Source: a virus. Taken from it: DNA of 43,396 bases. The notes beneath the pieces are model-generated. The model did not search any database and was not told the DNA's origin. It saw only the letters and a program-made list of their open reading frames with translations. Below are positions 1,755 to 43,396 of this stretch, one piece after another (the stretch's first letter is position 1; every line of letters starts with the position of its first letter). The position numbers were made by a program, and so were the translations under genes. The stretch is taken from the IMG/VR virus record IMGVR_UViG_3300045988_171811, one strand, 5' to 3'.

Positions 1755-1761
1755 ACAAATA

Positions 1762-2346: not shown

Positions 2347-2354
2347 CAGATGAT

Positions 2355-2407
2355 TCTTCCCCGCTATTCCGTGTTTCGGATGGGTTGTCGCGGAATAGTG
2401 GGGAAGA
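2355..2407 (+). terminator. Stem-loop after the major tail gene (attenuator or terminator)
   Basis: 17-nt arms tcttccccgctattccg / cggaatagtggggaaga, with one G-U pair and a 19-nt loop. There is no clear U-tract. Confidence 0.4.
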
Positions 2408-2463
2408 TCCAAAACAAACACAACCCACCCACTTTTGTAAAACAATTTTGAGGACAACCCATT

Positions 2464-3185: not shown

Positions 3186-3209
3186 ACCCGTGTTTCTATC
3201 GGATAGTGT

Positions 3210-3266
3210 AAAATGGTTCACGCCAAGACAAACACGAAAAACGGTTTGATTGGCGTGAACCATTTT
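3210..3266 (+). repeat. Perfect 16-bp inverted repeat (stem-loop) between the chaperone and tape measure genes
   Basis: aaaatggttcacgcca (3210-3225) and tggcgtgaaccatttt (3251-3266) are exact reverse complements with a 25-nt loop. The structure lies 28 nt upstream of the tape measure start. Confidence 0.7.
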
Positions 3267-3294
3267 CGCTACACATGATTTCGGAGAGGTATCA

Positions 3295-6200
3295 ATGGCC
3301 GGATATGATCTCGGGACCGCATGGATTCAGATCAGCCCGTCCGTGCGAGGCCTCGCCCGAAGCATCAATAGCGAAATCGGCAACGTCGACACCGGGCCGG
3401 CCGAGAGAAAGATCACATCCGGCCTGGGTGGTGCGTTCAAATCGGTAGCGAAAGTCGCCGGCGCCGCACTCGGAGGGCTCGCAATCGGCGGCATCGCCGT
3501 CGCATTCGGCGGCGTCGCAAAAGAAGCATTCAACGCGGCCGACGCCACAATCAAATTCAAACAAACGCTCGCATTCGCCGGTAAAAGCGCGGACGAAATC
3601 AACGCGCTCACAAAAAGCACGCGCTCCTACGCAGACCGCACAATTTACGAGCTCGACGACATTCAATCAATCACCGCACAGCTAGCATCCAACGGCGTAA
3701 AGGGCTACGATAAACTCGCCGAGGCGGCCGGTAACTTGAATGCTGTTGCTGGCGGGAATGCGCAGACGTTCAAAACGGTCGGCCTTGTCATGACGCAGAC
3801 CGCGGGTGCCGGAAAACTTACCACCGAGAACTGGAATCAGCTTTCCGACGCAATTCCTGGCGCATCTGGTAAATTGCAGGAAGCCATGAAAAAGAATGGC
3901 GCCTACACGGGCAATTTCCGGGAAGCCATGGAAAAGGGCGAGATCACCGCCGAGGAATTCAACCAAGCGATTCTCGACCTCGGTATGGAGGACGTGGCCA
4001 TTGAGGCCGCTACATCCACCAAAACCCTGGAAGGTGCCTGGGGGAACTTCAAGGCGACCCTTGTGACCGGGGCGCAGGAAATCGCCGAAAAAGCACTCCC
4101 GTGGATCACCGCATCCCTTGACGCTATGAGCAAAGGGTTCGAGAAAGTATTCAACTGGGTCAGTAACTCGTTCATTCCTAGTATTACGAATGCTTTCAAC
4201 GTTATCCGCAAGGGTGATTTCACGGGCCCGATCTTCTCGTTCGAGGAAGACTCAAGCTTCGTTGATTTTCTTTTCCGCATGCGTGACGCTGCCGCCGCCG
4301 CGGGGGAATGGATTAACAAGACGCTCGTCCCGTCGTTGAAGAATCTTAAAGATTTGCTCATGTCTGGTGATTTCACGGGGACGATTTTCGGATTCGACAA
4401 AGACTCTGGAATCATCTCGTACATCACCAACGTACGCAACAGTTTCGTCGAGCTCGGCAAATTCATTGTTGGGACGCTCGTCCCCGGCATCGCCACGGCG
4501 CTCAGCACCATCGCGAACAGCAGCCTTGTCCAATTCATGGAAAGTCTCACCGTCGCTATTCTCAATAGCAAAGTGGCGGTTTACAGCATTGCGGCTGCGT
4601 TCACGGCATGGAAAGCCGTCATGGTCATGTCCTCAATGCAGCAATGGCTAAATGACATGGAAGGCGTAGCCGGCGTAGCAGGGCGTGTCACCACGGCCAT
4701 TAACGCGATGACCGTGGCGAAGGTCAAAGACGTGGTTGAGACAGCGCAGCTCAACCTCATGTACGCCGGCGAATTCCTGTCGAATATCGCGCGTGCAACG
4801 ACGCAGATCACGATGCAGGCGGTTGCTTGGGGGAGGGCCACGGCAATGATGGTCCTCCACAAAACTGCAACAATCGCTTCAACTGCGGCGCAGTGGGCAT
4901 TCAACGCCGCAATGGACGCCAACCCAATCGGCCTTGTTGTGATCGCTATTGCAGCATTGGTCGCAGCCATTGTGGTGGCATGGCAGAATTCCGAAACATT
5001 CCGCAACGTCGTCATTTCTTGCTGGGAAGCAATCAAAACAGCAGCCGGGGCCGTGGCCGATTGGTTCGCCGCTAACGTATGGCCTCTCATGCAAGTCGCA
5101 TGGGACGGAATCGTGGCAGGCGCCCAGTGGATGTGGGGCGTCATGGTATCCGTCTGGCAAGGAATGCAACCTATTATTCAGGCGGTCATTGATTGGATCG
5201 TCGGTACCGCATGGCCCGCGCTTCAGGCGGCATGGGACGGGATTGTCGCCGGAGCCCAATGGGTATGGAACGGCATCGTCAGCGTCTGGCAGGGAATACA
5301 GCCCGTCATTCAAGCCGTCGTTGATTGGATCGTAAATACTGCGTGGCCCAACCTGCAAGCCGCCTGGGACGGCATTTCCGCGGGCGCAATGATCGTTTGG
5401 AACGGAATGGTCGCAGCCTGGCAGGGGATCAGCGACATAATCCGGCCTGTCGTTGATTGGATTGTCAACGTTGCCGCTTTGTATCTCACTACGGCATGGG
5501 ATGCTATCAGCTGGGGTGTGAGCGCGCTTTGGTCCACGATTCAGTGGGCGTGGGACGCTATTTGGGCGGCAATCATGCCCGTCGCCACACAAATCTACAA
5601 CGACATTTGGCCCATGGTAGTCGGCGCATTTAACGCGATTAAAGACACCGCCAGTATGATGTGGGCCGATATTCAGATCGCATGGACCGCAATTCAAACC
5701 GCAATTCAGCCCGTTGCAGATTGGATTTACAATACAGTTTGGCCTTGGGTCGTTGGCGCGTTCAATGCGATTAAAGACACAGCCGCCAACATGTGGGCCG
5801 ATATTCAGACCGCGTGGACCGCAATTCAAGCGGCAATGCAACCGGTAGTCGAGTGGATCTACTACACAGCATGGCCCTGGGTAGTCGATACATTCAACAC
5901 GATCAAAGATGCAGCGTCTAATCTTTGGGGCACTGTATCGGCGGCGTGGACCTCCATTCAGGCTGCAATGCAGCCCGTAGTCGAATGGATCTACTACACA
6001 GCATGGCCCTGGGTAGTCGATACATTCAATACAATCAAAGACACCGCCTCCGCCCTTTGGGGCACCATATCAGCGGCGTGGAACGGCATTTGGGCCACCA
6101 TTCAGCCCGTCGTTGATTGGATTTACAATATTGCATGGCCGTGGGTGGTCGGAGCATTCAACGCCATTAAAGACACGGCGTCTATTATGTGGGGCTCCCT

Positions 6201-14374: not shown

Positions 14375-14625
14375 GAGACGCTCCGCAAAAGTATGCTACA
14401 GCGCACTGCAGAATGCTGGGGACCATCGGATTCTCTGTGAGTCCATCCTGTTGACACTCCACGCCTCGTCTTCACGAAAACACCATTATCAGTGACCTCG
14501 ATTTTCCCCGGCGAGCACTCAATGGCAGTGACTCCCGTGTGGTCAGAAATGCGAGGAGGTGGCGTGATATCACGCAATTCTCCAGCAATCGTCAACGCGA
14601 TTTCCCGGCGATCAATCTTGCTCAT
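14371..14625 (-). CDS. Hypothetical protein (accessory block)
   Basis: 84-aa ORF, start-stop coupled to both neighbours. Confidence 0.5.
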   Translation of the reverse strand: MSKIDRREIALTIAGELRDITPPPRISDHTGVTAIECSPGKIEVTDNGVFVKTRRGVSTGWTHRESDGPQHSAVRCSILLRSVS

Positions 14626-15143
14626 TACTCTACCTCCATGGCCGATGGTGTGACACCGATCTGCCCCTGATAATGCGAGCCGAGACCGTTGGTGCCGTAT
14701 GGTGCACTGGCTGGCCTGTCCAGGTCCTCGAAAGCGATCTGCGCGATCCTGTCCCCAGGGTGAAGAATGGCAGATTTAGTGGAGTGCAGGTTAGCGATTT
14801 CCAAGGTCACGTTTCCCTGGAATCCCGGATCAATGTATCCCGCGGACACGTGGACGAGAATTCCGCGGCGCGCCCACGATGACTTGCCTTCGACTCTGGC
14901 CACTAGGTCGGCTGGCACGCTGACTTTCTCCTGCGTGGATGCGAGAATAAACTCACCCGGCAACAGCTCATAACCATTCTTACCGATGGTGACATTCTCG
15001 TCCCCATGACGATAGGCGACGATGTTCTCGTCCAACCGCACCTCTACTGACGCTGGCTGAATAGACAACGGCTTCTGCCAGTCGGAGATGAGTTCGCCCC
15101 AATCGATTCTGCGTCGGAGAGTAAAATCACTCAGCGTAGCCAT
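14625..15143 (-). CDS. dcd: dCTP deaminase family protein (Dcd/dUTPase fold)
   Basis: 172 aa. Motifs GKSSWARRGILVHVSAGYIDPGFQGNVTLEIANL and GDRIAQIAF...YQGQ match the Dcd family signature. Confidence 0.8.
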   Translation of the reverse strand: MATLSDFTLRRRIDWGELISDWQKPLSIQPASVEVRLDENIVAYRHGDENVTIGKNGYELLPGEFILASTQEKVSVPADLVARVEGKSSWARRGILVHVSAGYIDPGFQGNVTLEIANLHSTKSAILHPGDRIAQIAFEDLDRPASAPYGTNGLGSHYQGQIGVTPSAMEVE

Positions 15144-15598
15144 TGCGGTAGTCCCTCGTCTTCGTTTTCCTTGATCACATGGACCGTGTAACCTTTATCA
15201 CGTAGAATTGATTCGGCTTCAAGAGCAAGGGCGGCCTTCCCTCCTGGCATGATTTCCATCGCGTCTTCACTGTGCTCCGAAACTATGATCGCGCAGACGT
15301 ACGCATTGTCGTCTGATGAGTCGTCATAAGTGAGCACATATCTGCCTTTCTCGCGCCAATATGTGCACCTAGTGAAAGTGATTCTCCCTTCCTGCCACGA
15401 ACACAAGGCAAGCGTTACTCCCTGAACAAGTTGCACGGTGTGCATAAGCTCATGGATCGTGGCGGACGGATTGGTAGAATTGCTTTGAATACTGAATTCA
15501 CAGTCAATGGCATGCATGAATGCAGTCGCCACCCACCGCTCACCACATTTCACCAAATCAACTAAAGCAATGTTGACAATATTTTCCATAATGGTCAC
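15131..15598 (-). CDS. Hypothetical protein (accessory block)
   Basis: 155-aa ORF overlapping neighbours on both sides. No family recognised. Confidence 0.5.
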   Translation of the reverse strand: MTIMENIVNIALVDLVKCGERWVATAFMHAIDCEFSIQSNSTNPSATIHELMHTVQLVQGVTLALCSWQEGRITFTRCTYWREKGRYVLTYDDSSDDNAYVCAIIVSEHSEDAMEIMPGGKAALALEAESILRDKGYTVHVIKENEDEGLPQWLR

Positions 15599-16623
15599 TT
15601 CTCTTCTGGAATATAGCCGCTGAGGCGGTCGTGTAAAATGGCGGACGTGAAGTCTGTGAGCCGGTCTCGAATTTCCCCGGCGCGATCCTCTGGGGCGAGC
15701 TGTCTGTTGATAGTGTCCCAGTAGGCATTTCGCAGAATCGCGATCACCGTCTGGCCTCCCCGCTCGGCGACGAGTTCACGCAGATACCACGCCGCCTTTC
15801 CCATGTCAACATTCTCGTCGGCACCATTCTTATGGCCAGCCCTGAAAATATACTTCAGGGCACTGCCAGTCAAATAGTCTTTGTCGCGAATGAAAGTAAT
15901 GGGCTCGGGATCGAGGGCCGTATAGTGTGATGGGTGAGTTATCTCGTTCTCATGTACATTATTCTCGACGCGCCCGCCATTCTTCTCCGTGACACAGAAA
16001 ATGTCATCGCACTTCTTTGTGATATAGATAACGTTGTCGCGGAGAGTCAACTCATAGCACTGCTCATCGAAAGACAAGAACCCTTCTCCGCCCTCTTCAG
16101 TCTCGTACCATATACACCATTCGCCACTAAAATACCTATGCGTCCTCTTGATGGGCGCTTCATGACCGTCGGAGACATGGAGACGAATTGGTCTACCTGC
16201 GAATTTCACCTCGTAGTCGGCGTAAGCCCAATAGGGGCCGGTTTGCTGCCAATACCAGCCATCGCGCTTATGCTCCAAAAAGACGCGATGACGACTCCAG
16301 CATGCTACTCGTCGTTTATTAGCAAGATTGCGGATATGCGCCTCCCAGAACCCATCATGCGGCACCACCTTCAAAACATACTCGTACTCGCCGCTCGGGT
16401 AGAAAATCTTCTCGCACTCATCATCTACAGGTGACACAACATAATCCCCTTTCTCTGTCTGTGTGATCGAATAGTCGCTGTACTTGAAATAGTGTCTTCG
16501 TTCTGCATCACTGCTAATAGAAGCGAAACCAACCCCTCTACTGTCGCCGGTTTGCGATATGATTCTCTCTTTACTACCGTCCGGCAAGTACAGCCAAACC
16601 GTCTTCAAAAACATCATGTCCAT
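15595..16623 (-). CDS. Two-domain protein: unknown aromatic-rich N-terminus plus a DUF3310 (SaV-like) C-terminus
   Basis: The C-terminal sequence HPSHYTALDPEPITFI...LTGSALKYIFRAGHKNG...DMGKAAWYLRELV fits the DUF3310 pattern (HY...KY..R...K......KA..YL). Confidence 0.6.
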   Translation of the reverse strand: MDMMFLKTVWLYLPDGSKERIISQTGDSRGVGFASISSDAERRHYFKYSDYSITQTEKGDYVVSPVDDECEKIFYPSGEYEYVLKVVPHDGFWEAHIRNLANKRRVACWSRHRVFLEHKRDGWYWQQTGPYWAYADYEVKFAGRPIRLHVSDGHEAPIKRTHRYFSGEWCIWYETEEGGEGFLSFDEQCYELTLRDNVIYITKKCDDIFCVTEKNGGRVENNVHENEITHPSHYTALDPEPITFIRDKDYLTGSALKYIFRAGHKNGADENVDMGKAAWYLRELVAERGGQTVIAILRNAYWDTINRQLAPEDRAGEIRDRLTDFTSAILHDRLSGYIPEEK

Positions 16624-34904: not shown

Positions 34905-35141
34905 CTACGCATGTGGGTTGTTTGCTAGCAACTTGCTTTCTAGAACAAAAACACCCGTTTGTGTTACTACAATATTGGTGCGTGTCGTCACACTTTCTGC
35001 CCCTGTAGCAAGGTTTTGTGTCAGTGTGTTTCGCATGATTGCAACGAATAGTCTCTGTCACGGTTGTTTTGTTGGCAGTGTTTGTTGCGGTGACTTTGGT
35101 CCCGTATGCTACACTCGAGTAGACGAATCGTCGAAGACGAT

Positions 35142-35201
35142 CGCGGCGTAGCCGCTGAGGAGCCCTAGCGACGCAAGCGAGCGTTACGCCGCGGGTGTTT
35201 T
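35142..35201 (+). terminator. Long hairpin followed by a U-tract (terminator or small structured RNA 3' end)
   Basis: cgcggcgta (35142-35150) pairs with tacgccgcg (35185-35193) around a GC-rich interior, followed by ggtgtttt. Confidence 0.4.
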
Positions 35202-35257
35202 CGAAGAGCTCGCCACTGTGTTGGGCCCAACCTATACTCTTAAAAGAGTACTAGAAT

Positions 35258-35310
35258 TAGACACTGTCTAACACGCCTAGACAGTGTCTATTTTTGTTAG
35301 ACAGTGTCTA
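35258..35310. promoter_or_regulatory. Three 13-bp palindromes TAGACA-N-TGTCTA phased at exactly 20 bp (operator-like array)
   Basis: Copies at 35258-35270, 35278-35290 and 35298-35310. Flanked by further short inverted repeats (tactctt-aa-aagagta at 35235-35250; tgttca-N4-tgaaca nearby). Confidence 0.7.
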
Positions 35311-35469
35311 ATTAGGTAACATGTGTTATAACATAATTAGTGTTCAATGGTGAACATGACGATTGTTAACAGTGAACAGTGCGATGGGGGCAACACACAC
35401 TATTGCGGTGGCATACAACACACACACTATTAGATAAACAAACCCGCAATACACGAGGCGTGTGCTGTG

Positions 35470-35504
35470 TTACGTGCGTGCTCGCAAAGCTGCGCGCGCA
35501 CTAC
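35470..35504 (+). repeat. 35-bp repeat copy 1 (hairpin GTGCGTGC...GCGCGCAC) followed by a purine-rich tract
   Basis: ttacgtgcgtgctcgcaaagctgcgcgcgcactac differs from the copy at 36130-36164 only at two loop positions (aa versus gg). Confidence 0.7.
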
Positions 35505-35675
35505 ACAGCACCCGCCATTCCAAAACAAAGAAAAACGAGGAGAAAAGAAAGAGAAAAGGAAAAAAGAACAGAGAGGGTAGTGTTAGACGGTGGAGGCGCT
35601 CGTCTCGCTGACGCTGCGACGCGCCACCACCTAACACAAACAAAGAGAAAGAAAAGCGAAGAGAGGAGAACAACG

Positions 35676-36020
35676 GTGAGCAGAACAAGCACCAAAGAAC
35701 ATAAACAATTCAGAAAACAAGTACTCGCCAGAGCACAAGCAATGGGCATCACACACTGCCCAGCATGCGGAACCAAACTCCAATACCACAATAACGGGCA
35801 ACGCAAACCCAACTCAGCCGAGGCAGACCACATAATCCCAGCCTCACTAGGCGGAACCAACCACCCAGACAACGGCAGAGTGCTGTGCGCCAAATGCAAC
35901 AGCAGACGCGGCAACGGCAGAGGAGGAAAAGGAAAAGCACGCCACTACCAGAAAAACGAGGGGGAACGAGACAGGCTACCTATCGCAGTCATGCCCACCG
36001 AACACTCGGACACATGGTGA
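35676..36020 (+). CDS. HNH endonuclease (terminase-associated type)
   Basis: GTG start after gagaggagaa-N5. Motifs: CPACG...EADHIIPASLGGTNHPDNGRVLCAKCNSRRGN. The part of the track ORF upstream of it is low-complexity. Confidence 0.8.
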   Translation: MSRTSTKEHKQFRKQVLARAQAMGITHCPACGTKLQYHNNGQRKPNSAEADHIIPASLGGTNHPDNGRVLCAKCNSRRGNGRGGKGKARHYQKNEGERDRLPIAVMPTEHSDTW

Positions 36021-36129
36021 ATCACACACCACCGCCATTCCAACACACAGAAAGGCTGGGCAAAAAGAGAAGAGAAAAGAGGAGAAGAGAAGACAAAGAG
36101 ACACAATGGTGTTCGGGGATTACGTGCGT

Positions 36130-36164
36130 GCTCGCAGGGCTGCGCGCGCACTACCCCGAACACC
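36130..36164 (+). repeat. 35-bp repeat copy 2 followed by a (GAGGAA)n purine-rich tract
   Basis: ttacgtgcgtgctcgcagggctgcgcgcgcactac lies 660 bp downstream of copy 1 and is followed by aaagaggaagaggaagaggaagaggagaag. Confidence 0.7.
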
Positions 36165-36969
36165 GAACAACAAAGAGGAAGAGGAAGAGGAAGAGGAGAA
36201 GACGGAGAACAGCGAACTAAAACAACACACCACGCCCCCTCCCCACCATTCCAGCACACGCATAAACCATCACCGCCATTCCACAATGACACAACCATGC
36301 CACAAAAACACTACCCTAAACCAACAATACTGTGACAGCAAACACAAAGGGCGGAAGAGAAGAGCAGAACAGGACACAGTTCCACACGCCACATACCACC
36401 GCACTTCCCCACCCACAACAAACACGACAATACACAAGACAGAAGAAGAGCGGGAACAACACAAGGGAAGCAGGACAACGCGAAGACAGGGAACACCATG
36501 AAGATGACGGGGACAACGCAAGACAGGGGACACCGCACACGCCAACACACCCCGCCCCTCAACACGGCCACCACACAAACGTAAGGGGGACGCCGATACA
36601 AAACGAGGGGACGTCATCACACAGACGAGAGGGTCATCATCGCAGCACCCGCCCTTCATTCACCATGCCACCCCACCACACAATGGCACCCCACCATCCA
36701 CTACGCCCCCACCCACCACCACCGTGAAGGGGGGAGCACACAGAGGATACCCCACCACACAAACACTGCAGACACGCACCACCCACACACCACACACCCG
36801 GCAGGCAACAGTGCACGACACGACAGCAGTACTCACACAGTACGCACGAGGAGTAGATGGCATGGGCCGCACGCACTTGGTCGGGCACACCACCGCCATT
36901 CCACAGCAGCACACACCGACGAGGATGGACACCATCCACTCTCCCACCTCACACTGTTCACGTTCACAC

Positions 36970-37310
36970 AACCAACGAACAACAATGATCAACGAACATG
37001 ATGATGAACAATCATCGTTCAATGATCAATCAATCAACAATGAATGATGAACATCATGATGATCAATGATGATCAACAATAAACATGATCAACATGATGA
37101 TGAACATCACGATGATGATGTGATGCATGACATGCATACCAATACCATGCACCATGCATGGTGCCAACGCATGCCACAAGGCAACATGCAATGCACAAAC
37201 GCACAAACACACAAAAAAGCATAAAAACAAAAGAAATGTTACAAAAAATGCAAAAATATTCAAGGCACGAATCGAACAATGGCGTTCAAAAAAACCATGG
37301 CAACAAAACG
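36970..37310. repeat. AT-rich degenerate repeat tract (ATGATCAA / ATGATGAACA / ATGCAT) with phased A-tracts
   Basis: Five ATGATCAA copies place GATC at 36987, 37024, 37061, 37071 and 37087. A5-7 tracts begin at 37213, 37223, 37243, 37252 and 37288. Confidence 0.7.
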
Positions 37311-37319
37311 AGACGAACA

Positions 37320-37353
37320 TAAGGGATCCCTTAAAAGAGTAAGGGATCCCTTA
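37320..37353. promoter_or_regulatory. Two 14-bp perfect palindromes TAAGGGATCCCTTA, 20 bp apart
   Basis: Copies at 37320-37333 and 37340-37353. Each is part of a 16-bp direct repeat, taagggatcccttaaa. Confidence 0.75.
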
Positions 37354-37491
37354 AAGTGGGACCCACACCACAAAACAAGACAGGGAACACACACAAACGA
37401 GACACACACCACACAAATTATGTGATGGGGGCCACCCCCCCTCCCCCATCTGGCCGCGAACACCCCGAAGGTCTGCCCATCTCTCCCTGCT

Positions 37492-37620
37492 TGTGGAAAA
37501 CCCTGTGGATAACTCCAGTAATCCATGTCACAATGTGACTGCCGTCATGTGGAAAACTCCCAAACCTGTGGAAAACCCTGTGGAAAACTCAGACAGCCTG
37601 TGGATAACCCTGTGGAAAAC
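37492..37620 (+). promoter_or_regulatory. Cluster of seven co-oriented TGTGGAWAAC boxes (complement of DnaA-box consensus TTWTCCACA; alternatively terS/cosB-type sites)
   Basis: Boxes start at 37492, 37504, 37548, 37567, 37579, 37599 and 37611. Two are TGTGGATAA (perfect TTATCCACA) and five are TGTGGAAAA. Three pairs have 12-bp spacing. The extended consensus is CCTGTGGAAAACYC. Confidence 0.7.
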
Positions 37621-37626
37621 CCCGCA

Positions 37627-37663
37627 GGAACATGACTGACATTACAGCATATAATAGAGGGTA
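37627..37663 (+). promoter_or_regulatory. Candidate late/packaging promoter with a perfect -10 TATAAT and a leaderless terS start
   Basis: TATAAT is at 37650-37655. The terS ATG begins at 37663, 7 nt after the -10, and has no usable SD (the only SD-like element, gaggg, lies just 1 nt upstream). The weak -35 is ggaaca with a 17-nt spacer. Confidence 0.4.
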
Positions 37664-37944
37664 TGACAACCCACACAAACACCACAATCACCGTATACGA
37701 ACCCAACAGCCCCGCACCCATCACAGACGCCACAAACACCGGCAACCCCACCCTCATCCGCCAAGCACTCGCACACAAAATCGCCACCGTCATAGACGAC
37801 CCCAGGACAGGCGACACAGCACTCACAAAACTCACCGCACAACTCATACAAATCACAGACCAACTCGCCACCACACAAAACGAAAACACACAAACACACA
37901 CCACCGACATTCCAAACGAAACACAAACCTGGGACGGCATCTGA
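37663..37944 (+). CDS. terS: Small terminase subunit (candidate)
   Basis: 93 aa. The stop overlaps the terL ATG (ATCTGATG). The segment LIRQALAHKIATVIDDPRTGDTALTKLTAQLIQITDQLA resembles the C-terminal helices of actinophage small terminases. Sits directly upstream of terL. Confidence 0.5.
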   Translation: MTTHTNTTITVYEPNSPAPITDATNTGNPTLIRQALAHKIATVIDDPRTGDTALTKLTAQLIQITDQLATTQNENTQTHTTDIPNETQTWDGI

Positions 37945-39437
37945 TGAGCGAAAAACACCTATCCGAAATCGCCGCCCACCTCACCCTCCCAGAAAACATC
38001 ACACACACAGCCTGGCCACCAGTCCAACGCCGCCTCCAAGAAATGCAATACCCCCTCGACGTATGGCAGCAAGACTGGCTAAAAGCAATCCTCGCAAAAA
38101 GAAAAGACGGCCACTACGCCGCCAGCATCGACGGAATTCAAGCATCCATCCCTCGTCAGGTCGGCAAAACATACACAATCGGCGGCCTCACATTCGCACT
38201 CGCCACCCTCCACCCAAACTACTTCGTCCTCTGGACCGCACACCGCACACGCACCGCGGACGAAACATTCAACGACATGAAAGGCATGGCACAAATCCCC
38301 AACATCGCCCCATACGTAAACAAAATACGGCAAGCAAACGGACAACAAGCCATCCTCTTCAACAACGGATCACGCATTCTCTTCGGAGCCCGCGAAGGCG
38401 GATTCGGGCGAGGATTCCACGGCGTAGACATGATACTTTTCGACGAAGCCCAGATCCTAGGCGCCGCCGCACTAGACGACATGATCCCCGCCACAAACAC
38501 GGCGCCCGACCCACTCATCATCAAAATCGGGACACCACCAAAACCAAAAGACCCATCCGAAGCATTCAGCGAATTCCGCAACCTCGCCCTGCAAGGCGAA
38601 ATAAAAGACGGCCTCTACCTCGAACTGGCCGCCGACTATGACGCCAACAGCGACGACAGGAAACAATGGGAAAAAGCAAACCCATCATACCCGCGCCGCA
38701 CACCCGAATCCGCCATTCTAAGAATGCGCCGGCAGCTCGGAGAAGAATCATTTCGACGTGAAGGCCTCGGAATATGGGACCGCGCCAACGACAGACTCGC
38801 AATCGACCCAATCGCTTGGAACGCCGCCGCAATACGGCCAGAAAACACTCCGTCTGGTATGCGGTGGTGCGCCGCGATCAGGTTCGCACCCGACGGATCA
38901 ACGTGCGCCCTAGCCCGAGCTGGACATAAGCAAAACACGCCCACACACGTCGAACTCTGCACACACCAAGGCGTCCGCCGCATGAGTGAGGGCACACAAT
39001 GGATCATCGACTACATTGCAGACACAAAAGACAGATGGGCGCAAATCATCGTAGACGGAAAATACGGTGCCGGAGACACAATCGAAAGACTCCGTGCCAT
39101 CGGAGTACGCCCGCAAGTCATTATCACGCCCACGATCACGCAAATCGTAGACGCTTACAGCATGCTAGACGCCTCACTACGCGAAAAAACAATCACGCAC
39201 CTGGACGACATGCAACTGAGAACCGAAGCCGCGTCCGCAACATCACGCCCAATCGGAACATCAGGAGGATGGGCGCTACAGGCCCCGCCCGGCGCCACAG
39301 TAGCCGGCCTAGAGGCATGCACGCTCGCAATGTGGGCCGCACGCACAACAAAAAGAAGGCCTCGTTACAAGCCTTATGATAAAATCGAGAACGCCAATAG
39401 TAATACTGGACGTGGCGGCGGAGTATTGTTCCTATGA
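37944..39437 (+). CDS. terL: Terminase large subunit
   Basis: The start is set at ATG 37944 (MSEKHLSEIAAHL). Walker A IPRQVGKT and Walker B MILFDEAQ, with a C-terminal nuclease region. The track ORF's 104-aa His/Arg/Thr N-terminal extension is rejected. Confidence 0.85.
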   Translation: MSEKHLSEIAAHLTLPENITHTAWPPVQRRLQEMQYPLDVWQQDWLKAILAKRKDGHYAASIDGIQASIPRQVGKTYTIGGLTFALATLHPNYFVLWTAHRTRTADETFNDMKGMAQIPNIAPYVNKIRQANGQQAILFNNGSRILFGAREGGFGRGFHGVDMILFDEAQILGAAALDDMIPATNTAPDPLIIKIGTPPKPKDPSEAFSEFRNLALQGEIKDGLYLELAADYDANSDDRKQWEKANPSYPRRTPESAILRMRRQLGEESFRREGLGIWDRANDRLAIDPIAWNAAAIRPENTPSGMRWCAAIRFAPDGSTCALARAGHKQNTPTHVELCTHQGVRRMSEGTQWIIDYIADTKDRWAQIIVDGKYGAGDTIERLRAIGVRPQVIITPTITQIVDAYSMLDASLREKTITHLDDMQLRTEAASATSRPIGTSGGWALQAPPGATVAGLEACTLAMWAARTTKRRPRYKPYDKIENANSNTGRGGGVLFL

Positions 39438-41050
39438 CTGAAATTTATCCTGACGACGGACGACTCGTTAATGCTACGCCCGCCCCCACACGCATTTCCG
39501 GACTCCCCGACGACGACAAGGTAACATTCCTGCAACTGTGGCAGAAATGGCAGCAGCACTCAAACAAAAACAAGCTGCTGTCCGTCTACTACGACGGCCA
39601 CCGCGCTTTCCAGGACTTGGGTATTAGTATTCCGCCGCAAATGACGCGCACCAAGGCGGCGCTTGGGTGGCCTCAGAAAGTCGTCACCATGCTCGCCCGA
39701 CGGCACGTGTTCGAGGGCTACTCGTTGAACGGCGCCCCCGACGCCTTCGAAGCAAACGAAATACTCTCCGCAAACAACTACGACCTTGACCTCGCGCAGG
39801 CAATAACGTCCGCCTACAAGCATTCTTTCTCACTACTTACAGTGACACGGGGGGACGAGACCATCGGCGAACCGCCTGTCGTCGTGCAGGCCCGTGACGC
39901 AGAATGGGGCGCCGCCCTTTGGGACACTAGGCGCCGCATAATCGAAGCCGCCCTCACAATCGACAAGACCGACAAATACGGGCAGCCCGCCGGCGCCATC
40001 ATGCACACCCCCACCGCCATTTGGCGAATCGACGCCAAAGAAAACGGTGGCGGATGGAAAGCTGAAAAGCTCGGAGACACGCCCAACCGCATTTTCGTCG
40101 AAGCACTCTGCTACGACCCGCAGCTGAACCGCCCATTGGGGCATTCACGAATCACCCGTGAAGTAAGATATCTCACGGACGCGGCGGTGAGGACAATGGT
40201 CCGTGCGGAAACATCCGCAGAATTCTTCTCCTCCCCGCAGCGGTACGTGCTCGGTGCGGAAAGAGCAGATTTCGCCGGCCAAGACAGGTGGTCCGCAATC
40301 ATGGCCCGAGTCCAAGTACTCGAGCCGAACGAGAACGGCGACATTCCCAGTGTTGGGCAATTCTCACAAATGACCATGAGCCCTCACCTGGAAATGTACC
40401 GTCAGCTGGCGCAGAATTTGTGTGCAGCCACAAACCTCCCTCAATCCGCCATCGGAGTATTCGCGGAGAATCCTGCCTCGGCTGAGGCGATGCAGGCGGC
40501 TGAGGCGGCGCTCGCGGACGAAGCCGAGTACCAATGGCGCATTTTCACCGCCCCGCTGCGGCGCACTTTGCAGAACATTATTATGGTCCGGGATAAGCTT
40601 GACGAGCCTCCCGCTGAGTCCTGGAAGACCTCGGTGAAGTGGACCCCCGCCCGCTATTCCTCGCCCTCGTCTGCCGCCGATTTCGCGGTCAAAATGGTGT
40701 CCGCGTTCCCGTCGCTGCAGGAGTCGCAGACTCTCATGCGGCGTGCCGGACTCACCGAGGACGATCTCGCAGATATCAACGCCGAAAATCGTAAGAAGAA
40801 TGCGGTGTCCCTACTCGACCGAGCTCTCGCCGCCACAAACAACGAGAACACTGTGGACGAGAACGGCGAAAACGCCGAGAATGATGACACAGCCAACAAT
40901 GATGGCGGCGACAATGCCGACAATGTTGGCAACAGCAACGGCGGCAACGGTAGCGGCAATAACCTGGGCATTAATAACGCACCCAATACAAGGAACCGGG
41001 TTAAGCGCAACATCAAACTGCCCGGCGGCACTAAAACACCAATAAACTAA
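39434..41050 (+). CDS. Portal protein (SPP1 gp6-like)
   Basis: 538 aa. ATGA overlap with terL. Conserved order terL-portal-MuF. The C-terminal tail is Asn/Gly/Asp-rich and low-complexity. Confidence 0.8.
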   Translation: MTEIYPDDGRLVNATPAPTRISGLPDDDKVTFLQLWQKWQQHSNKNKLLSVYYDGHRAFQDLGISIPPQMTRTKAALGWPQKVVTMLARRHVFEGYSLNGAPDAFEANEILSANNYDLDLAQAITSAYKHSFSLLTVTRGDETIGEPPVVVQARDAEWGAALWDTRRRIIEAALTIDKTDKYGQPAGAIMHTPTAIWRIDAKENGGGWKAEKLGDTPNRIFVEALCYDPQLNRPLGHSRITREVRYLTDAAVRTMVRAETSAEFFSSPQRYVLGAERADFAGQDRWSAIMARVQVLEPNENGDIPSVGQFSQMTMSPHLEMYRQLAQNLCAATNLPQSAIGVFAENPASAEAMQAAEAALADEAEYQWRIFTAPLRRTLQNIIMVRDKLDEPPAESWKTSVKWTPARYSSPSSAADFAVKMVSAFPSLQESQTLMRRAGLTEDDLADINAENRKKNAVSLLDRALAATNNENTVDENGENAENDDTANNDGGDNADNVGNSNGGNGSGNNLGINNAPNTRNRVKRNIKLPGGTKTPIN

Positions 41051-41058
41051 CACTTATT

Positions 41059-41784
41059 ATGCTGTCAACCGCAGAAATCGGGGCATACGGTCGAGCAATA
41101 GACTCACTCACCACACTCGCCCAAAACGACCTACACGCGCTCTGGGCGCACGCCGCACGGCAAAGGCCCCAGGACGCCCGCGACCTTCTGCTCGAAATCA
41201 TGCCCGCCCTCGTAGACCAATACGGTAATGCGGCCGCCGCAATCGCCGACGAATGGTACCGCGACATGCGCCTAGACCAAGACATTCCCGGCGACGCCCC
41301 CACAGTACAAACATCACTCACACCACAAGGCGAAATAGACGACAGCGTCAGATTCAGCGCGGGCGCACTATACGCCGGAAACCAAGACATTGCCCTATCC
41401 TATCTGACCGGGGCGCTCATCCGATACGTCAGCGACGGAGCCCGCTCACAAATCGCAGACATGACATGGGCCGACCCGGAAGCCATGGGCTGGGAAAGAC
41501 GAACACGTAACCCACAAGCCTGCAATTTCTGCGTCATGCTCACAATGAACGAATGCTACTACCGGTCACAGGGGACCGCGTCGTTCGGGGCGCACGATAA
41601 CTGCAAATGTGTCGCGGTCCCAGCATGGGACCCGACCTCCCGCGAAGTTCCCGCGAAAGCGTACACGCTCGCGGCCAGACACAAAACTGATAAAGGTCGC
41701 AAACGGCATCGTGAACTCGTCTCATCGTGGATAGACACGCACCAGGAAGAGCTCGCAGAATGGCGCACTCGGCCAATTGAATGA
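41059..41784 (+). CDS. MuF-like head morphogenesis / minor capsid protein
   Basis: The C-terminal motif CNFCVML...HDNCKCVAVP matches the Phage_Mu_F signature (C..C...H.NC.C). Follows the portal gene. Confidence 0.7.
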   Translation: MLSTAEIGAYGRAIDSLTTLAQNDLHALWAHAARQRPQDARDLLLEIMPALVDQYGNAAAAIADEWYRDMRLDQDIPGDAPTVQTSLTPQGEIDDSVRFSAGALYAGNQDIALSYLTGALIRYVSDGARSQIADMTWADPEAMGWERRTRNPQACNFCVMLTMNECYYRSQGTASFGAHDNCKCVAVPAWDPTSREVPAKAYTLAARHKTDKGRKRHRELVSSWIDTHQEELAEWRTRPIE

Positions 41785-41891
41785 TTGTGCTACAATGCAT
41801 AAACAAGGGCCACGAAAGACGGCTGCAAAGCCCAGAATAGTTGCCTGAAAACATCACAACAACCGCACGGTCAAAATATAGGAAACGCCCA

Positions 41892-42374
41892 ATGAGCGAT
41901 AACGTTGCAAGCGACACGCCAGCCGACAACAGCGCCACTAACGACGACAACGCCTCCACGAACGGGGACAACGCTGCTAGTAAGCCCGAAATCGACTGGA
42001 AGAGCGAGTCCCGTAAGTGGGAGAATCGCGCCAAGGAAAATCGGCGCGCCGCTAACGAACGAGACGAGCTCGCCAAGGCAATCGGCGACAAAGACGCCAC
42101 AATCGAAGCCCTAAAGGCCAAAGTGGCAGATTTCGAAACTGCCGCCAAAGTTCGCGAATGGTCCGCCAACGCCGCCGCCGAGCATGGTATCAGCGCCGAT
42201 TTGATCCGAGGAACAACCGAGGACGAAATCAACGCTCATGCTGCCGCAATCGCCAAGGCACTGCACGACGCTAAGCCGTCCGTCGCCCCCGTGGTACCAC
42301 AGGCCGGAGCCACGCCCGACAATGACGGCGGCAATCTTGCAGAATTCGCTCGGAATGTTTTCGCCGGCGACTAA
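41892..42374 (+). CDS. Scaffolding protein
   Basis: The start is set at ATG 41892. Ala/Glu/Lys-rich helical sequence (KWENRAKENRRAANERDELAKAIGDKDATIEALKAKVADFE). Immediately precedes the capsid gene. Confidence 0.65.
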   Translation: MSDNVASDTPADNSATNDDNASTNGDNAASKPEIDWKSESRKWENRAKENRRAANERDELAKAIGDKDATIEALKAKVADFETAAKVREWSANAAAEHGISADLIRGTTEDEINAHAAAIAKALHDAKPSVAPVVPQAGATPDNDGGNLAEFARNVFAGD

Positions 42375-42433
42375 AACACGCTAGCCGCTATTCTAAAAAG
42401 TAAAACACTAGAAAGAAACGGAAACCAACTAAA

Positions 42434-43366
42434 ATGGCCGTGTTTGATTCAGGCAAGGCAAAGGTCCTCATGCCTCGGCAGATTGCCGACGGGATCATTA
42501 CTCGTACTCAGACTCTCTCCACCGTCGCCAAGCTCAACGGTGGAATCCCCATGACTTTCGGCGACGTGGACATTATCACTTTCGATAATTTCCCGCGCGC
42601 CGAGTTCGTTGACGAGGGCGCTGAAAAGGCGCCCACCTCCGGTGAATTCGGCTATGTGACCGCTAAGCCGCATAAGGCGCAGGTTACTATGCGATTCAAC
42701 GAGGAGGTCCAGTGGGCCGACGAGGATTATCAGCTGGACGTCCTCAACCAGCTCGCGCAGAAGGGTAGTGAGGCGCTTTCCCGGGCCCTTGACCTCGGAC
42801 TTTATCACCGTGTTAACCCGCTGACTGGCGCTGTTATTGACGCGTGGACCAATTACCTGACCTCCACCACCAAGAATGTCGAGATTGGCACTACGGAGAT
42901 GGACCAGGCGATCCGTCAGGCCGCCGGTCTGCTCATTAATGATAATGCTGCGCCGATTACCCCCACTGGTCTTGCGCTTGCCCCGTCCGCGGTTTGGGCG
43001 CTCGGTAGTCTCCAGACCAAGAATGCAGACGGGTCGCCGTCGGGGACGCCGCGTTACCCGCAGATCGGCCTTGGTGTCAACATTGACAACTTTATGGGAC
43101 TTCCGGCTGCCGCTGGAAACACTGTTGCCGGTAAGCCTGAGGCGACCGCCGCCACCAATGTCGAGGGCATCGTCGGCGATTTCGTGGATGGTATTCGGTG
43201 GGGAATTCAGCGTTCTCTTCCGCTTGAGATTATCCGTTTCGGTGACCCGGACGGCCAGGGTGATTTGAAGCGTCGGAACCAGATCGCTCTGCGTCTCGAG
43301 ATTCTGTACGCTTGGTATGTTTTCCCGGACAAGTTCGCGACGATTAAGACCAAGGCCGGCGCCTGA
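42434..43366 (+). CDS. Major capsid protein (HK97 fold)
   Basis: 310 aa, following the scaffold gene. Composition and length are typical of HK97-like capsid proteins. Its 3' end runs into the 55-bp terminal overlap. Confidence 0.8.
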   Translation: MAVFDSGKAKVLMPRQIADGIITRTQTLSTVAKLNGGIPMTFGDVDIITFDNFPRAEFVDEGAEKAPTSGEFGYVTAKPHKAQVTMRFNEEVQWADEDYQLDVLNQLAQKGSEALSRALDLGLYHRVNPLTGAVIDAWTNYLTSTTKNVEIGTTEMDQAIRQAAGLLINDNAAPITPTGLALAPSAVWALGSLQTKNADGSPSGTPRYPQIGLGVNIDNFMGLPAAAGNTVAGKPEATAATNVEGIVGDFVDGIRWGIQRSLPLEIIRFGDPDGQGDLKRRNQIALRLEILYAWYVFPDKFATIKTKAGA

Positions 43367-43396
43367 TAAAATCGCCGTAAAGAAAAAATAACACAA
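43342..43396. repeat. Terminal 55-bp overlap identical to 1..55
   Basis: Exact match to window positions 1-55. Confidence 0.95.

What the first reader, a model, noticed from the sequence alone, without database searches (positions are those of the whole stretch)
37492..37620. Seven co-oriented DnaA-box-like repeats (TGTGGAWAAC) immediately upstream of the terS promoter
All seven boxes fit the relaxed DnaA-box consensus TTWTNCACA on the complementary strand. Two are the perfect E. coli-type TTATCCACA and five are TTTTCCACA. They form three 12-bp-spaced pairs plus one single box, and a 13-bp palindrome (gtcaca-a-tgtgac, 37527-37539) lies among them. The cluster ends 30 bp before a perfect TATAAT.

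Hypothesis A: host DnaA is recruited, either for origin firing next to the AT-rich tract or for DnaA-dependent control or titration coupled to late transcription.

Hypothesis B: these are cosB/pac-type small-terminase binding repeats, as with the lambda R sites between cosN and Nu1.

Caveat: high-GC Actinomycetota typically prefer TTGTCCACA, and the shared extended consensus CCTGTGGAAAACYC suggests a dedicated binder.
Basis: partly seen in the sequence, partly recalled or inferred. Interest (0 to 1): 0.75.

Follow-up and report, generated by a model that had tools for sequence, protein, structure and literature searches.

The report
Host DnaA-box array beside phage cos site
Seven perfect binding sites for the bacterial replication initiator DnaA start 18 bp inside the left end of an uncultivated oral actinophage chromosome, between the DNA-cutting (cos) site and the first packaging gene, and similar arrays sit at genome ends or just upstream of terminase genes in many unrelated phages.

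Summary
Seven co-oriented TGTGGAWAA boxes lie at 37492-37619; the window holds nine in total against 0.6 expected by chance.

The boxes are conserved in about 60 near-identical phages. Box cores never vary except at W, spacers drift, and whole 31-32-bp pair modules come and go (5-9 boxes).

I mapped the physical genome end. The left end is T37474 and the 3' cos overhang is about 37463-37473, so the array occupies nt 19-146 of the chromosome. That is the cosB position, and it ends 29 bp before an invariant TATAAT that gives a leaderless terS mRNA.

The exact tandem pair (9-mer, 3 bp, 9-mer, same flanks) is a standard module of chromosomal origins across bacterial phyla, beside dnaA and dnaN. 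It also occurs in more than 100 unrelated viral contigs. In 18 of 77 independent lineages a large terminase gene starts within 2 kb downstream on the same strand.

Isolated phages carry such arrays at their termini: Arthrobacter Tiff81, a T7-like Berlinvirus terminal repeat, and T5-like phages.

Most likely host DnaA binds and builds a cos-adjacent complex used in packaging. Late-promoter control, an origin role and terminase-only binding remain rivals. The binder and the function are inferred, not shown.

The parts
37492..37512 (+). DnaA-box pair 1 (TGTGGAAAA-CCC-TGTGGATAA). The first box starts 18 nt from the left genome end.
   Evidence: The 18-nt distance holds in 43 of 44 complete family arrays.
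37527..37539 (.). 13-bp palindrome GTCACAATGTGAC between pair 1 and box 3. It is conserved as TCACAATGTGA in most relatives and deleted in one.
37548..37556 (+). Single DnaA box 3 (TGTGGAAAA).
37567..37587 (+). DnaA-box pair 2 (TGTGGAAAA-CCC-TGTGGAAAA).
37599..37619 (+). DnaA-box pair 3 (TGTGGATAA-CCC-TGTGGAAAA). It lies 32 bp (three helical turns) after pair 2. This module is present, absent or duplicated among relatives.
37463..37473 (.). Inferred cos cleavage region: a 3' overhang of about 10-11 nt (CCCCGAAGGTC). The left chromosome end is T37474.
   Evidence: At least 9 IMG/VR contigs and one ENA scaffold start exactly at TGCCCATC, and one carries an Illumina adapter fused to it. Right-end contigs stop at about 37455-37469. 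The region aligns with the deposited ends of Rothia phage Spartoi. The length and polarity of the overhang are inferred.
37424..37450 (.). G/C-rich palindrome GATGGGGGCCACCCCCCCTCCCCCATC just left of cos. It is conserved in the family and has a counterpart at the right end of Spartoi.
   Evidence: G/C runs are enriched beside arrays in unrelated phages.
37650..37655 (+). Invariant TATAAT (-10), 7 nt before the terS ATG. This predicts a leaderless late transcript. There is no good -35.
   Evidence: The gap from the last box to TATAAT is 29-30 nt in 42 of 44 arrays. Promoter activity is inferred.
37663..37944 (+). Small-terminase candidate of 93 aa, acidic and 26% Thr.
   Evidence: phrog_1459 terS, E 2.9e-5. 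It aligns with gene 1/2 products of Spartoi, MrSmee, AbbyDaisy, G4 and Findley. pI 4.55 with 4 K+R.
37944..39437 (+). Large terminase.
   Evidence: Terminase_6N. 46-50% identity to the terminases of Arthrobacter, Rothia and P. freudenreichii phages.
35379..36020 (+). HNH endonuclease, the usual partner of this kind of cos terminase. The true start may be further downstream.
   Evidence: PF01844 HNH, E 8e-10. An HNH gene is also the last gene before the right end in Spartoi, MrSmee, G4 and Tiff81.
36961..37300 (.). Right-end non-coding elements that join the array only after circularisation: iteron-like ATGATGAACAT/ATGATGATCA repeats (36961-37125), ATGCAT palindromes, and an A-rich tract (37180-37300).

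Best explanation
The repeats are genuine, high-affinity, oriC-type DnaA boxes. After the genome circularises or forms concatemers, host DnaA binds them cooperatively: each pair has 3-bp spacing, and the pair modules repeat every 31-32 bp, about three helical turns. This builds a fixed nucleoprotein complex on nt 19-146 of the chromosome, right next to the cos cleavage site.

I propose that this complex serves as the cosB-type accessory element of the packaging site. It would be a host-factor landmark or DNA-bending scaffold that helps the terminase assemble and cut at cos and start packaging rightwards. The terminase here is an acidic 93-aa TerS with almost no basic residues, TerL, and the HNH nuclease. 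Lambda uses IHF plus the R sites in a comparable way.

Because the array ends at about -44 relative to the leaderless terS start, the same complex probably also affects the late promoter.

**Shown:** the boxes, their conservation, the cos position, the identity with oriC modules, and the recurrence of such arrays next to terminase genes and termini in unrelated phages.

**Inferred:** that DnaA binds (about 0.7-0.75), and that the role is in packaging rather than transcription or replication.
For: 1. **Sequence.** Seven matches to TTWTCCACA, highly non-random.
2. **Selection.** In 349 boxes from 57 distinct family arrays the 9-mer is essentially invariant. Only the W position toggles (A 263, T 84), which is the degenerate position of the DnaA consensus. 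Spacers vary and whole pair modules are gained or lost.
3. **Binder.** The exact 23-mer pair pattern occurs in at least 120 bacterial genomes of many phyla. Its commonest neighbours are DnaA (30 loci), DnaN (27) and RnpA (13). A Nocardiopsis oriC uses TTATCCACA and TTTTCCACA.
4. **Position.** The left end is at 37474, supported by recurrent contig starts, an adapter junction and homology to the Spartoi ends. The first box is 18 nt from the end in 43 of 44 arrays.
5. **Recurrence with unrelated terminases.** In 18 of 77 independent viral lineages that carry the pair, a TerL gene starts within 2 kb downstream on the same strand; about 2.5% is expected, P about 6e-13. Our TerL shows no BLAST similarity to the main TerL group there; its only hit is a weak one (25% identity, E 4e-10) to an HNH-type TerL. 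The small terminases there are of other families, Sf6-like and HTH_36.
6. **Isolated phages.**
   - Arthrobacter Tiff81 and Seahorse have four boxes between the HNH stop and the G-rich cos right end, with a 184-aa TerS of another family.
   - Shigella phage A7 (Berlinvirus) has an exact 177-bp terminal repeat that is mostly DnaA-box pairs.
   - P483 and nasanit carry the array at the concatemer junction after TerL.
   - T5-like phages carry 3-bp-spaced pairs in the terminal repeat.
7. **G/C runs.** G/C runs like the cos-proximal one here lie within 200 bp of the array in 13 of 108 loci, against about 2 expected.
8. **TerS.** The TerS candidate has pI 4.55 and 4 K+R, against 6-17 in homologues.
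Against: - No binding data exist for DnaA or for any phage protein.
- The closest isolated relatives (Spartoi, MrSmee, AbbyDaisy, G4) have only one TTTTCCACA at the same distance from the end, and in the opposite orientation. More distant relatives have just a T-tract plus CC there. That element may therefore be a lineage-specific terminase motif rather than a DnaA box.
- Those relatives package without an array, so the array is not essential for this type of cos.
- Arrays lie on either side of cosN in different phages, and after TerL in T7-like phages. No single geometry relative to the cut is conserved.
- Non-coding space in phages is concentrated at termini, which could bias where any array can sit.
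- No role of DnaA in packaging has been reported (literature searches).
Confidence: 0.4

Rival explanations
1. DnaA-controlled late promoter, acting as a timer. DnaA bound at -171 to -44 activates or represses the leaderless terS promoter. This would couple late gene expression to the host's DnaA-ATP level, or to titration of DnaA by the rising number of phage copies.
For: - The array ends 29-30 nt before an invariant TATAAT in 42 of 44 family arrays.
- The promoter has no good -35, so it may need a factor.
- The same co-oriented pair sits 26-37 bp before the dnaA start codon in Clostridia, the classic autoregulated arrangement.
- In several unrelated viral loci a sigma-70-like promoter follows the array (L090, L139).
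- The array is upstream of and co-oriented with terS or TerL in 18 lineages.
Against: - In L082-type phages the array lies between terS and terL. In T7-like phages it lies after TerL in the terminal repeat, and in T5 it lies in a non-coding terminal repeat. None of these is where a late promoter is expected.
- The constant distance from last box to -10 follows automatically from unit-wise recombination.
- The invariant 18-nt distance to the cos nick is not explained.
Confidence: 0.25
2. Classical cosB. The repeats are binding sites for the phage's own terminase (TerS, TerL or HNH), and the resemblance to DnaA boxes is coincidental or secondary.
For: - The array sits between cosN and terS.
- Relatives in the same TerL/TerS lineage keep GTTTTTTCCACA at nt 19-29 of the left end. 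More distant ones keep T-tract plus CC. This points to a lineage-specific cos motif whose reverse complement (GGGTTTTCCACA) is the unit repeated here.
- C at -2 and C at +9 are as invariant as the core.
Against: - The TerS candidate is acidic with 4 K+R, has no recognisable DNA-binding domain, and gave only a low-confidence two-helix model.
- The motif is inverted relative to the relatives.
- The same 12-bp tandem units occur at cos or termini of phages with unrelated TerS and TerL, and in bacterial oriC.
- The only variable core position is the degenerate position of the DnaA consensus.
Confidence: 0.15
3. One arm of the phage replication origin. After circularisation the DnaA boxes join the right-end iteron-like repeats and A-rich tract into an iteron-plasmid-like origin. 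DnaA would help melt the A-rich DNA so the phage primase-helicase can load.
For: - Iteron-like repeats (36961-37125), an A-rich tract (37180-37300) and the DnaA boxes lie within about 660 bp, and all are conserved.
- In other viral contigs the same arrays lie inside O-like or replication-initiator genes, or next to Prim-Pol or VapE genes.
- No dedicated initiator gene was recognised in this phage.
Against: - All boxes face one way, and there are no DnaA-trios or GC-cluster as at oriC unwinding sites.
- The array is 190-310 bp from the A-rich tract, with the cos nick and two GC palindromes in between.
- GC skew is strongly negative on both sides, with no sign change. The cumulative minimum is about 5 kb away.
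- The closest relatives lack the array.
Confidence: 0.12
4. DnaA sink. The array only titrates host DnaA as phage copies accumulate, which would block host re-initiation or de-repress DnaA-regulated genes. It sits near cos only because that is where non-coding DNA is available.
For: - The boxes are high-affinity and their number varies (5-9), as expected for a dosage element.
- Arrays occur in very different genomic contexts, including Microviridae and a conjugative element.
Against: - The distance to the cos nick is invariant.
- Arrays are strongly enriched just upstream of TerL and at termini.
- Arrays are tolerated inside ORFs elsewhere, so coding constraints do not force the location.
Confidence: 0.08

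Closest known systems
Lambda cosB (R3-I1-R2-R1 between cosN and Nu1, with host IHF)
   Same: - Repeated protein-binding sites directly between the cos nick site and the small-terminase gene.
- A proposed host architectural factor.
- Packaging proceeds towards the terminase genes.
   Different: - The repeats are DnaA boxes, not gpNu1 R sites, and there is no IHF site.
- TerS is an unrelated 93-aa acidic protein with no winged helix-turn-helix detected.
- cos has a 3' overhang and an HNH partner.
- The host factor would be DnaA, which has never been reported in packaging.
DnaA-box pairs in the terminal-repeat injection-stop region of T5-like phages (Davison, bioRxiv 10.1101/866236)
   Same: - Pairs of DnaA boxes separated by 3 bp.
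- About eight boxes per region.
- Non-coding DNA near a physical genome end.
- Conserved across a phage group, with the function untested.
   Different: - In T5 the pairs are embedded in inverted repeats several kb inside a 10-kb terminal repeat at the end that enters first.
- Here all boxes face one way, 18 nt from a cos end that, by lambda analogy, enters last, and directly upstream of terS.
Chromosomal oriC DnaA-assembly arrays and dnaA-promoter boxes
   Same: Identical unit, flanks and 2-3-bp spacing (CTGTGGAWAACYCTGTGGAWAAC). The co-oriented placement just upstream of a gene start matches the dnaA promoter in Clostridia.
   Different: There is no opposing array, no DnaA-trios or GC cluster, no adjacent unwinding element, no dnaA or dnaN nearby, and no skew switch.
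DnaA-titrating clusters (E. coli datA, B. subtilis DnaA-box clusters) and DnaA boxes of iteron replicons (P1 oriR, F, pSC101)
   Same: Clusters of strong boxes outside oriC on a replicon whose copy number changes. In P1, tandem boxes flank an AT-rich region and iterons.
   Different: No IHF site or initiator gene was found next to the array. The array is separated from the iteron-like repeats by cos, and its distance to the DNA end is fixed.

Membership tests
DnaA-box cluster (DnaA-binding array) | 9-mers matching TTWTNCACA | tested here: met
   7 of 7 match TTWTCCACA exactly.
DnaA-box cluster (DnaA-binding array) | Head-to-tail boxes with 2-3-bp spacing, as in authentic DnaA assembly regions | tested here: met
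   Three pairs have 3-bp spacing. The identical pair pattern lies beside dnaA or dnaN in at least 30 of 120 bacterial genomes.
DnaA-box cluster (DnaA-binding array) | Purifying selection on box positions | tested here: met
   In 349 boxes from 57 arrays the core is invariant except at W, while spacers vary.
DnaA-box cluster (DnaA-binding array) | Physical binding of host DnaA | not testable with these tools
   Needs EMSA, footprinting or ChIP. The host is only inferred: the source is an oral metagenome and the nearest TerL hits include a Rothia phage.
Chromosome-type replication origin (oriC / basal unwinding system) | Boxes followed by a GC cluster, DnaA-trios and an AT-rich unwinding element; opposing arrays | tested here: not met
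   There are no inverted boxes and no trios next to any pair. The A-rich tract is 190-310 bp away, across cos. Compare the bacterial examples.
Chromosome-type replication origin (oriC / basal unwinding system) | Strand-composition switch at the site | tested here: not met
   GC skew is -0.23 to -0.34 on both sides, and the cumulative minimum is about 5 kb to the right. Skew is a weak guide in phages.
Lambda-type cosB | Repeated sites between cosN and the small-terminase gene | tested here: met
   cos was mapped at 37463-37473 with the left end at 37474. The array is at 37492-37619 and terS starts at 37663.
Lambda-type cosB | Sites bound by the DNA-binding domain of the small terminase | tested here: inconclusive
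   No DNA-binding domain was detected. There is no Pfam hit, only a weak PHROG terS hit, pI is 4.55 with 4 K+R, and the AlphaFold model has pLDDT 54. Binding itself cannot be tested here.
Lambda-type cosB | Homology of TerS to gpNu1, and an IHF site | tested here: not met
   TerS belongs to the small actinophage family. No IHF-like site was looked for or seen. From general knowledge, classical IHF is not known in Actinomycetota.
T5-type injection-stop DnaA pairs | Pairs separated by 3 bp near a genome terminus | tested here: met
T5-type injection-stop DnaA pairs | Pairs embedded in the IRC/IRD inverted-repeat scheme inside a long terminal repeat | tested here: not met
   All boxes are co-oriented, the genome is cos-type, and the only inverted repeat is one 13-bp palindrome.
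Iteron-type origin with DnaA boxes (P1 oriR-like) | Iterons, an AT-rich stretch and DnaA boxes, contiguous and next to an initiator gene | tested here: inconclusive
   Iteron-like repeats, an A-rich tract and boxes are all present. However they span about 660 bp, are interrupted by cos, and no initiator gene was found.
DnaA-regulated promoter | Boxes within about 100 bp upstream of, or overlapping, a promoter | tested here: met
   The last box ends 29-30 nt before the invariant TATAAT. Both the promoter and the regulation are inferred.

The most novel reading that the evidence does not exclude
Tandem DnaA-box arrays are a widespread, unrecognised cis element of phage packaging sites and genome termini. 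They appear at cos, pac and terminal-repeat junctions in siphophages, T7-like and T5-like phages of many host phyla. Host DnaA, rather than a phage protein, would be the sequence-specific architectural cofactor that marks where terminase starts, playing the role IHF plays for lambda. This oral actinophage would be an extreme case: a TerS that has lost its basic residues and a cosB made entirely of DnaA boxes.
Probability: 0.25. Interest if true: 0.85.

Novelty: new variant of a known kind. Interest (0 to 1): 0.68.

Why it matters
How terminases find their start site is poorly understood for most phages, because small terminases often show weak sequence specificity. If a universal host protein marks cos, pac or terminal repeats, that would explain site choice in many phages at once. 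It would link packaging, or the late switch, to the host's replication state. It would predict a new host dependency and a possible point of defence or counter-defence.

It would also give a simple sequence signature for locating genome ends and packaging sites in metagenomic phage contigs. The long-standing question of what the T5 DnaA boxes do would gain testable relatives in tractable systems: E. coli Berlinviruses and Arthrobacter phages.

Tried and rejected
- **Close relatives among deposited phages.** Megablast of 36500-39500 against deposited phages found nothing, so the phage is uncultivated.
- **Known RNAs.** Rfam (E up to 1) and tRNA scans of the region found nothing above threshold.
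- **Phage-encoded DnaA-like or other DNA-binding protein.** Pfam and PHROG scans of about 35 ORFs gave no candidate.
- **TerS homologues.** The 5.8-billion-protein search returned only the close family, and PDB sequence search found nothing.
- **TerS structure.** The AlphaFold model had pLDDT 54, with two helices at 29-45 and 51-80. That is too poor for a fold search, so none was run.
- **Contig-end distances in unrelated loci.** I tried using the distance of arrays to contig ends as evidence for termini. I dropped it because locus ends are not always contig ends.
- **Contig breaks as assembly artefacts.** I considered that contig breaks at the array come only from the repeats. This is true for some contigs, whose two ends overlap within the array. 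It is rejected as the sole cause because of the exact recurrent start at TGCCCATC, the adapter junction, and the homology to the Spartoi ends.
- **Other boxes as a second cluster.** The two other boxes in the window (28570, 33410) are not conserved.
- **Host from lysis or tail genes.** This failed; there were no PHROG hits.
- **Conserved single box in relatives as a DnaA site.** I first read it as proof of a DnaA site at cos. Wider sampling showed the conserved core is T-tract plus CC, so this argument was downgraded.
Full report
**1.
- The + strand carries TGTGGAAAA or TGTGGATAA at 37492, 37504, 37548, 37567, 37579, 37599 and 37611. That makes three pairs with 12-bp start-to-start spacing plus one single box.
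- The palindrome GTCACAATGTGAC is at 37527-37539, and a perfect TATAAT is at 37650.
- The window contains nine matches to TGTGGAWAA, against 0.59 expected from dinucleotide-preserving shuffles; no shuffle reached nine.
- The two matches outside the cluster are inside genes and are not conserved in relatives.

**2. Genome context.**
- The window is a complete, circularly permuted phage genome of about 43.4 kb.
- On the + strand it runs HNH endonuclease (35379-36020), then about 1.45 kb of T-poor non-coding DNA, the array, a 93-aa small-terminase candidate (37663-37944; phrog_1459), large terminase (37944-39437), portal, and the structural genes.
- Replication and recombination genes lie on the - strand.
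- The exact terminase protein is encoded on contigs from a human oral metagenome (PRJEB6997).
- The nearest cultured relatives by TerL (46-50% identity) infect Arthrobacter, Rothia and Propionibacterium freudenreichii. A Rothia-like oral actinobacterial host is my inference.

**3. The array is under selection.**
- IMG/VR holds 62 near-identical relatives, with TerL 93-98% identical.
- Every contig that covers the region has the array.
- In an alignment of 16 of them the boxes are invariant while the spacers between them differ. Whole pair-plus-spacer units of 31-32 bp are present, absent or duplicated.
- Across 57 distinct arrays (349 boxes) the 9-mer is essentially fixed except at the W position (A 263, T 84). 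C at -2 and C at +9 are also fixed.
- Complete arrays have 5-9 boxes. The first box is 18 nt from the conserved left-end motif in 43 of 44, and the last box ends 29-30 nt before TATAAT in 42 of 44.

**4. The physical end of the genome lies 18 nt upstream of the first box.**
- At least nine IMG/VR contigs and one ENA scaffold begin exactly at TGCCCATC, which is window 37474.
- One contig starts with the 3' end of an Illumina paired-end adapter fused directly to that T (adapter identity from memory). This indicates a real DNA terminus.
- Contigs approaching from the other side stop at about 37455, 37462, 37463 and 37469. Two of these are followed by Nextera adapter or chimeric sequence.
- The deposited right and left ends of Rothia phage Spartoi (...CCCCCATCGGCGGGCCAGACGAACACCCCCCGGCGAT | AGCGATATATTCACC...) align with ...CCCCCATCTGGCCGCGAACACCCCGAAGGTC | TGCCCATCTCTCCC... 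here.
- I therefore place cos at about 37463-37473, with a 3' overhang of some 10-11 nt. Length and polarity are inferred from the gap between right-end and left-end contig termini.
- Some contigs read through the junction or break inside the repeats, as expected for circular or concatemeric DNA in the same samples.
- The array thus occupies nt 19-146 of the chromosome, between cosN and terS. This is the position of lambda cosB.

**5. Who binds? The sequence is that of authentic DnaA sites.**
- The commonest neighbouring proteins are DnaA (30 loci), DnaN (27), RnpA (13), YidC, RecF and GyrB.
- The sequences show the usual dnaA-dnaN origin layout. Tandem TGTGGATAA arrays with 11-12-bp period face inverted arrays that end in a GC cluster and CTACTACTAC trios.
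- In several Clostridia the pair sits 26-37 bp before the dnaA start codon.
- A Nocardiopsis origin uses TTGTCCACA, TTATCCACA and TTTTCCACA side by side. The A/T-rich box variants are therefore acceptable in high-GC Actinomycetota.
- From memory, the flanks CC...C(Y)C are those of the E. coli high-affinity boxes R1 and R4. The extended consensus does not argue for a dedicated binder.
- The only variable core position in the family is the degenerate W of the DnaA consensus.

**6. The same arrays recur beside terminase genes in unrelated phages.**
Of the loci returned, 108 are unrelated to this phage. They have GC from 0.27 to 0.73 and co-oriented arrays of 2-11 boxes.
- Clustering of neighbouring ORFs gave large terminases as the biggest group. 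Further TerL families were found by PHROG.
- After collapsing to 77 lineages, 18 have a TerL start within 2 kb downstream on the same strand. About 2.5% is expected, binomial P about 6e-13.
- The small terminases there are of other families: an Sf6-like one ends 16 bp before the array, and an HTH_36 ORF contains it.
- Our TerL shows no BLAST similarity to the main TerL group there; its only hit is a weak one (25% identity, E 4e-10) to an HNH-type TerL.
- A second, smaller class has the array inside O-like or replication-initiator genes, or beside Prim-Pol or VapE genes. Phages therefore also use such arrays at origins.
- G- or C-runs of 9 in 10 nt, like the one next to cos here, lie within 200 bp of the array in 13 loci against about 2 expected.

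**7. Cultured phages show the link to termini directly.** BLAST with a synthetic four-box array found 91 records.
- In Arthrobacter phages Tiff81 and Seahorse, four boxes (TGTGGATAA, 12-bp period) run from the HNH stop codon to a G-rich palindrome 48-93 nt from the right cos end. A 184-aa TerS of another family starts at nt 52 of the left end.
- Shigella phage A7 (Berlinvirus, T7-like) has an exact 177-bp terminal repeat whose nt 22-150 are DnaA-box pairs.
- In the permuted records of Berlinviruses P483 and nasanit, the array lies between TerL and the early genes, which is the concatemer junction.
- Klebsiella phage ZK1 has six boxes in its first 200 nt.
- T5-like phages carry 3-bp-spaced pairs in the terminal repeat. 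This was noted in a preprint, which proposes without experiments that membrane-bound DnaA stops DNA injection there. The function was still called unclear in 2026.
- Full-text searches found no paper linking DnaA boxes to cos sites, terminases or late operons.

**8. What the closest relatives say.**
- Spartoi, MrSmee, AbbyDaisy and the P. freudenreichii phages all begin AGCGAT(A/C)TCTCCCC-N3-4-TTTTTTCCACA. That is one box at nt 19-29, the same distance as our first box but in the opposite orientation. Gene 1 starts at nt 51-95, leaving no room for an array.
- I first took this as a conserved DnaA site at cos. More distant members of the TerL lineage (mycobacteriophages Findley, Larva, Enkosi) have only T-tract plus CC there.
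- The element may therefore be a lineage-specific cos motif. This keeps the terminase-binding hypothesis alive and shows that the array is an expansion specific to this oral phage family.

**9. The small terminase is an unlikely reader of seven 12-bp sites.**
- It aligns with the gene 1/2 products of the relatives. The conserved core is two helices...AMR..IA.A.DD..T..RDLAAL.RR..EI....
- It has pI 4.55, only 4 K+R in 93 residues and 26% Thr. Its homologues have 6-17 K+R.
- There is no Pfam domain and no PDB relative. The AlphaFold model is low-confidence (pLDDT 54).
- This fits the idea that DNA recognition has been delegated, but it does not prove it.

**10. Mechanism.**

*What I consider shown.* This is an oriC-type DnaA-box array under purifying selection, fixed 18 nt from the cos end and about 44 nt upstream of a predicted leaderless terS start. 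It is one instance of a recurrent association of such arrays with phage termini and terminase genes.

*What I infer.*
- Host DnaA binds (about 0.7-0.75).
- The complex most likely acts as a cosB-type host-factor scaffold for packaging initiation (0.4 overall).
- Its position relative to cosN flips between phages: left of the nick in Tiff81 and many metagenomic loci, right of it here. Its position relative to terS and the junction is kept. The function therefore probably acts on circular or concatemeric DNA, not on the injected linear end.

*Rivals.*
- DnaA control of the late promoter (0.25). This is supported by the dnaA-promoter-like geometry. It is hard to square with arrays between terS and terL or after TerL.
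- Terminase-only binding (0.15).
- One arm of an origin, together with the right-end iteron-like repeats and A-rich tract (0.12). The elements are present, but there are no trios, no opposing boxes, no skew switch, and cos interrupts them.
- A position-indifferent DnaA sink (0.08).

**11. Comparison and novelty.**
- The element works like lambda cosB with IHF. It is not a member of that family, because the sites, the TerS and the host factor all differ.
- It shares its unit structure with oriC arrays but fails the defining features of an origin.
- It shares paired 3-bp-spaced boxes near a terminus with T5, but not the inverted-repeat scheme.
- I rate it a new variant of a known kind.
- The broader pattern may be the more interesting result and is directly testable in cultured phages: DnaA-box arrays at cos, pac or terminal-repeat junctions in at least 18 uncultivated lineages and several cultured groups.

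Noticed in passing
window 36020-37470: About 1.45 kb between the HNH gene and cos is probably non-coding and extremely T-poor on the + strand (A 0.38, C 0.31, G 0.20, T 0.11). The long ORFs in several frames there are artefacts of the lack of stop codons. Relatives such as Spartoi have only about 150 bp in this place. There is no Rfam match.
   Followed up: partly
window 36961-37165: Iteron-like repeats of ATGATGAACAT / ATGATGATCA (about 12 copies) are followed by a highly conserved block of ATGCAT palindromes (ATGCATGACATGCATACCAATACCATGCACCATGCATGGTGC). The repeat type is conserved in the family but the copies vary. This may be an origin or another protein-binding array.
   Followed up: partly
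window 37320-37355: Two exact copies of the palindromic 16-mer TAAGGGATCCCTTAAA lie 20 bp apart. In most relatives the first copy is replaced by a different GC palindrome (AAAGGGGGCCCCAAC). Function unknown.
   Followed up: partly
window 35000-43396 and 1-5000: There is a strand-composition gradient centred on cos. The + strand G+T fraction falls to 0.31 on both sides of cos and returns to 0.5 about 5 kb to the right and 2 kb to the left. It is independent of coding strand; the coding strand of terS has 7.8% T. This suggests the - strand near cos is often single-stranded, or some other end-linked mutational process. Unexplained.
   Followed up: partly
window 37650-37665: The invariant CATATAATAG ends 7 nt before the terS ATG. 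This predicts a leaderless mRNA, typical of Actinomycetota. The genome has only five TATAAT hexamers.
   Followed up: partly
L393 / L403 (Shigella phage A7, NC_048180.1, nt 1-177 and 39882-40058): The exact 177-bp terminal repeat of this T7-like Berlinvirus consists largely of DnaA-box pairs (TTATCCACAGAGTTACCCACA). The same array sits at the concatemer junction in Berlinviruses P483 and nasanit, and six boxes lie in the first 200 nt of Klebsiella phage ZK1.
   Followed up: partly
L391 (Arthrobacter phage Tiff81, PV105567.1, nt 50437-50482): Four DnaA boxes start 2 nt after the HNH stop codon and run into a G-rich palindrome 48 nt from the right cos end. Seahorse has the same arrangement. This is a cultured system in which the role of the array could be tested.
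   Followed up: partly
hits H43, H51, H53, H58, H79, H80 (Microviridae / gokushovirus records): Small ssDNA phages also carry tandem DnaA-box arrays, some annotated inside or next to the replication-initiator gene.
   Followed up: no
L344 (Bifidobacterium scaligerum NZ_PGLQ01000003.1), array at oriented 5791-5823: A three-box array lies inside a small ORF, where it translates as ...VDNSVDNSVDN.... It is immediately upstream of a TraG/VirD4-like coupling protein, so such arrays also occur in conjugative elements.
   Followed up: partly
L057 and L046 (first 25 nt): One family contig starts with a snap-back inverted copy of the sequence around the left end. Another starts with an adapter remnant. 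Both are assembly or library artefacts caused by the natural DNA end.
   Followed up: yes
window 14625-16623 (- strand): A dCTP deaminase/dUTPase-like gene and a nucleotide-kinase-domain gene sit together. This could point to altered nucleotide metabolism or DNA modification.
   Followed up: no
L056 (IMGVR_UViG_3300045988_169391): One relative shows a single box between the left end and the promoter. This is either a real recombinational collapse of the array or an assembly collapse of the repeats. If real, one box is enough for viability.
   Followed up: no
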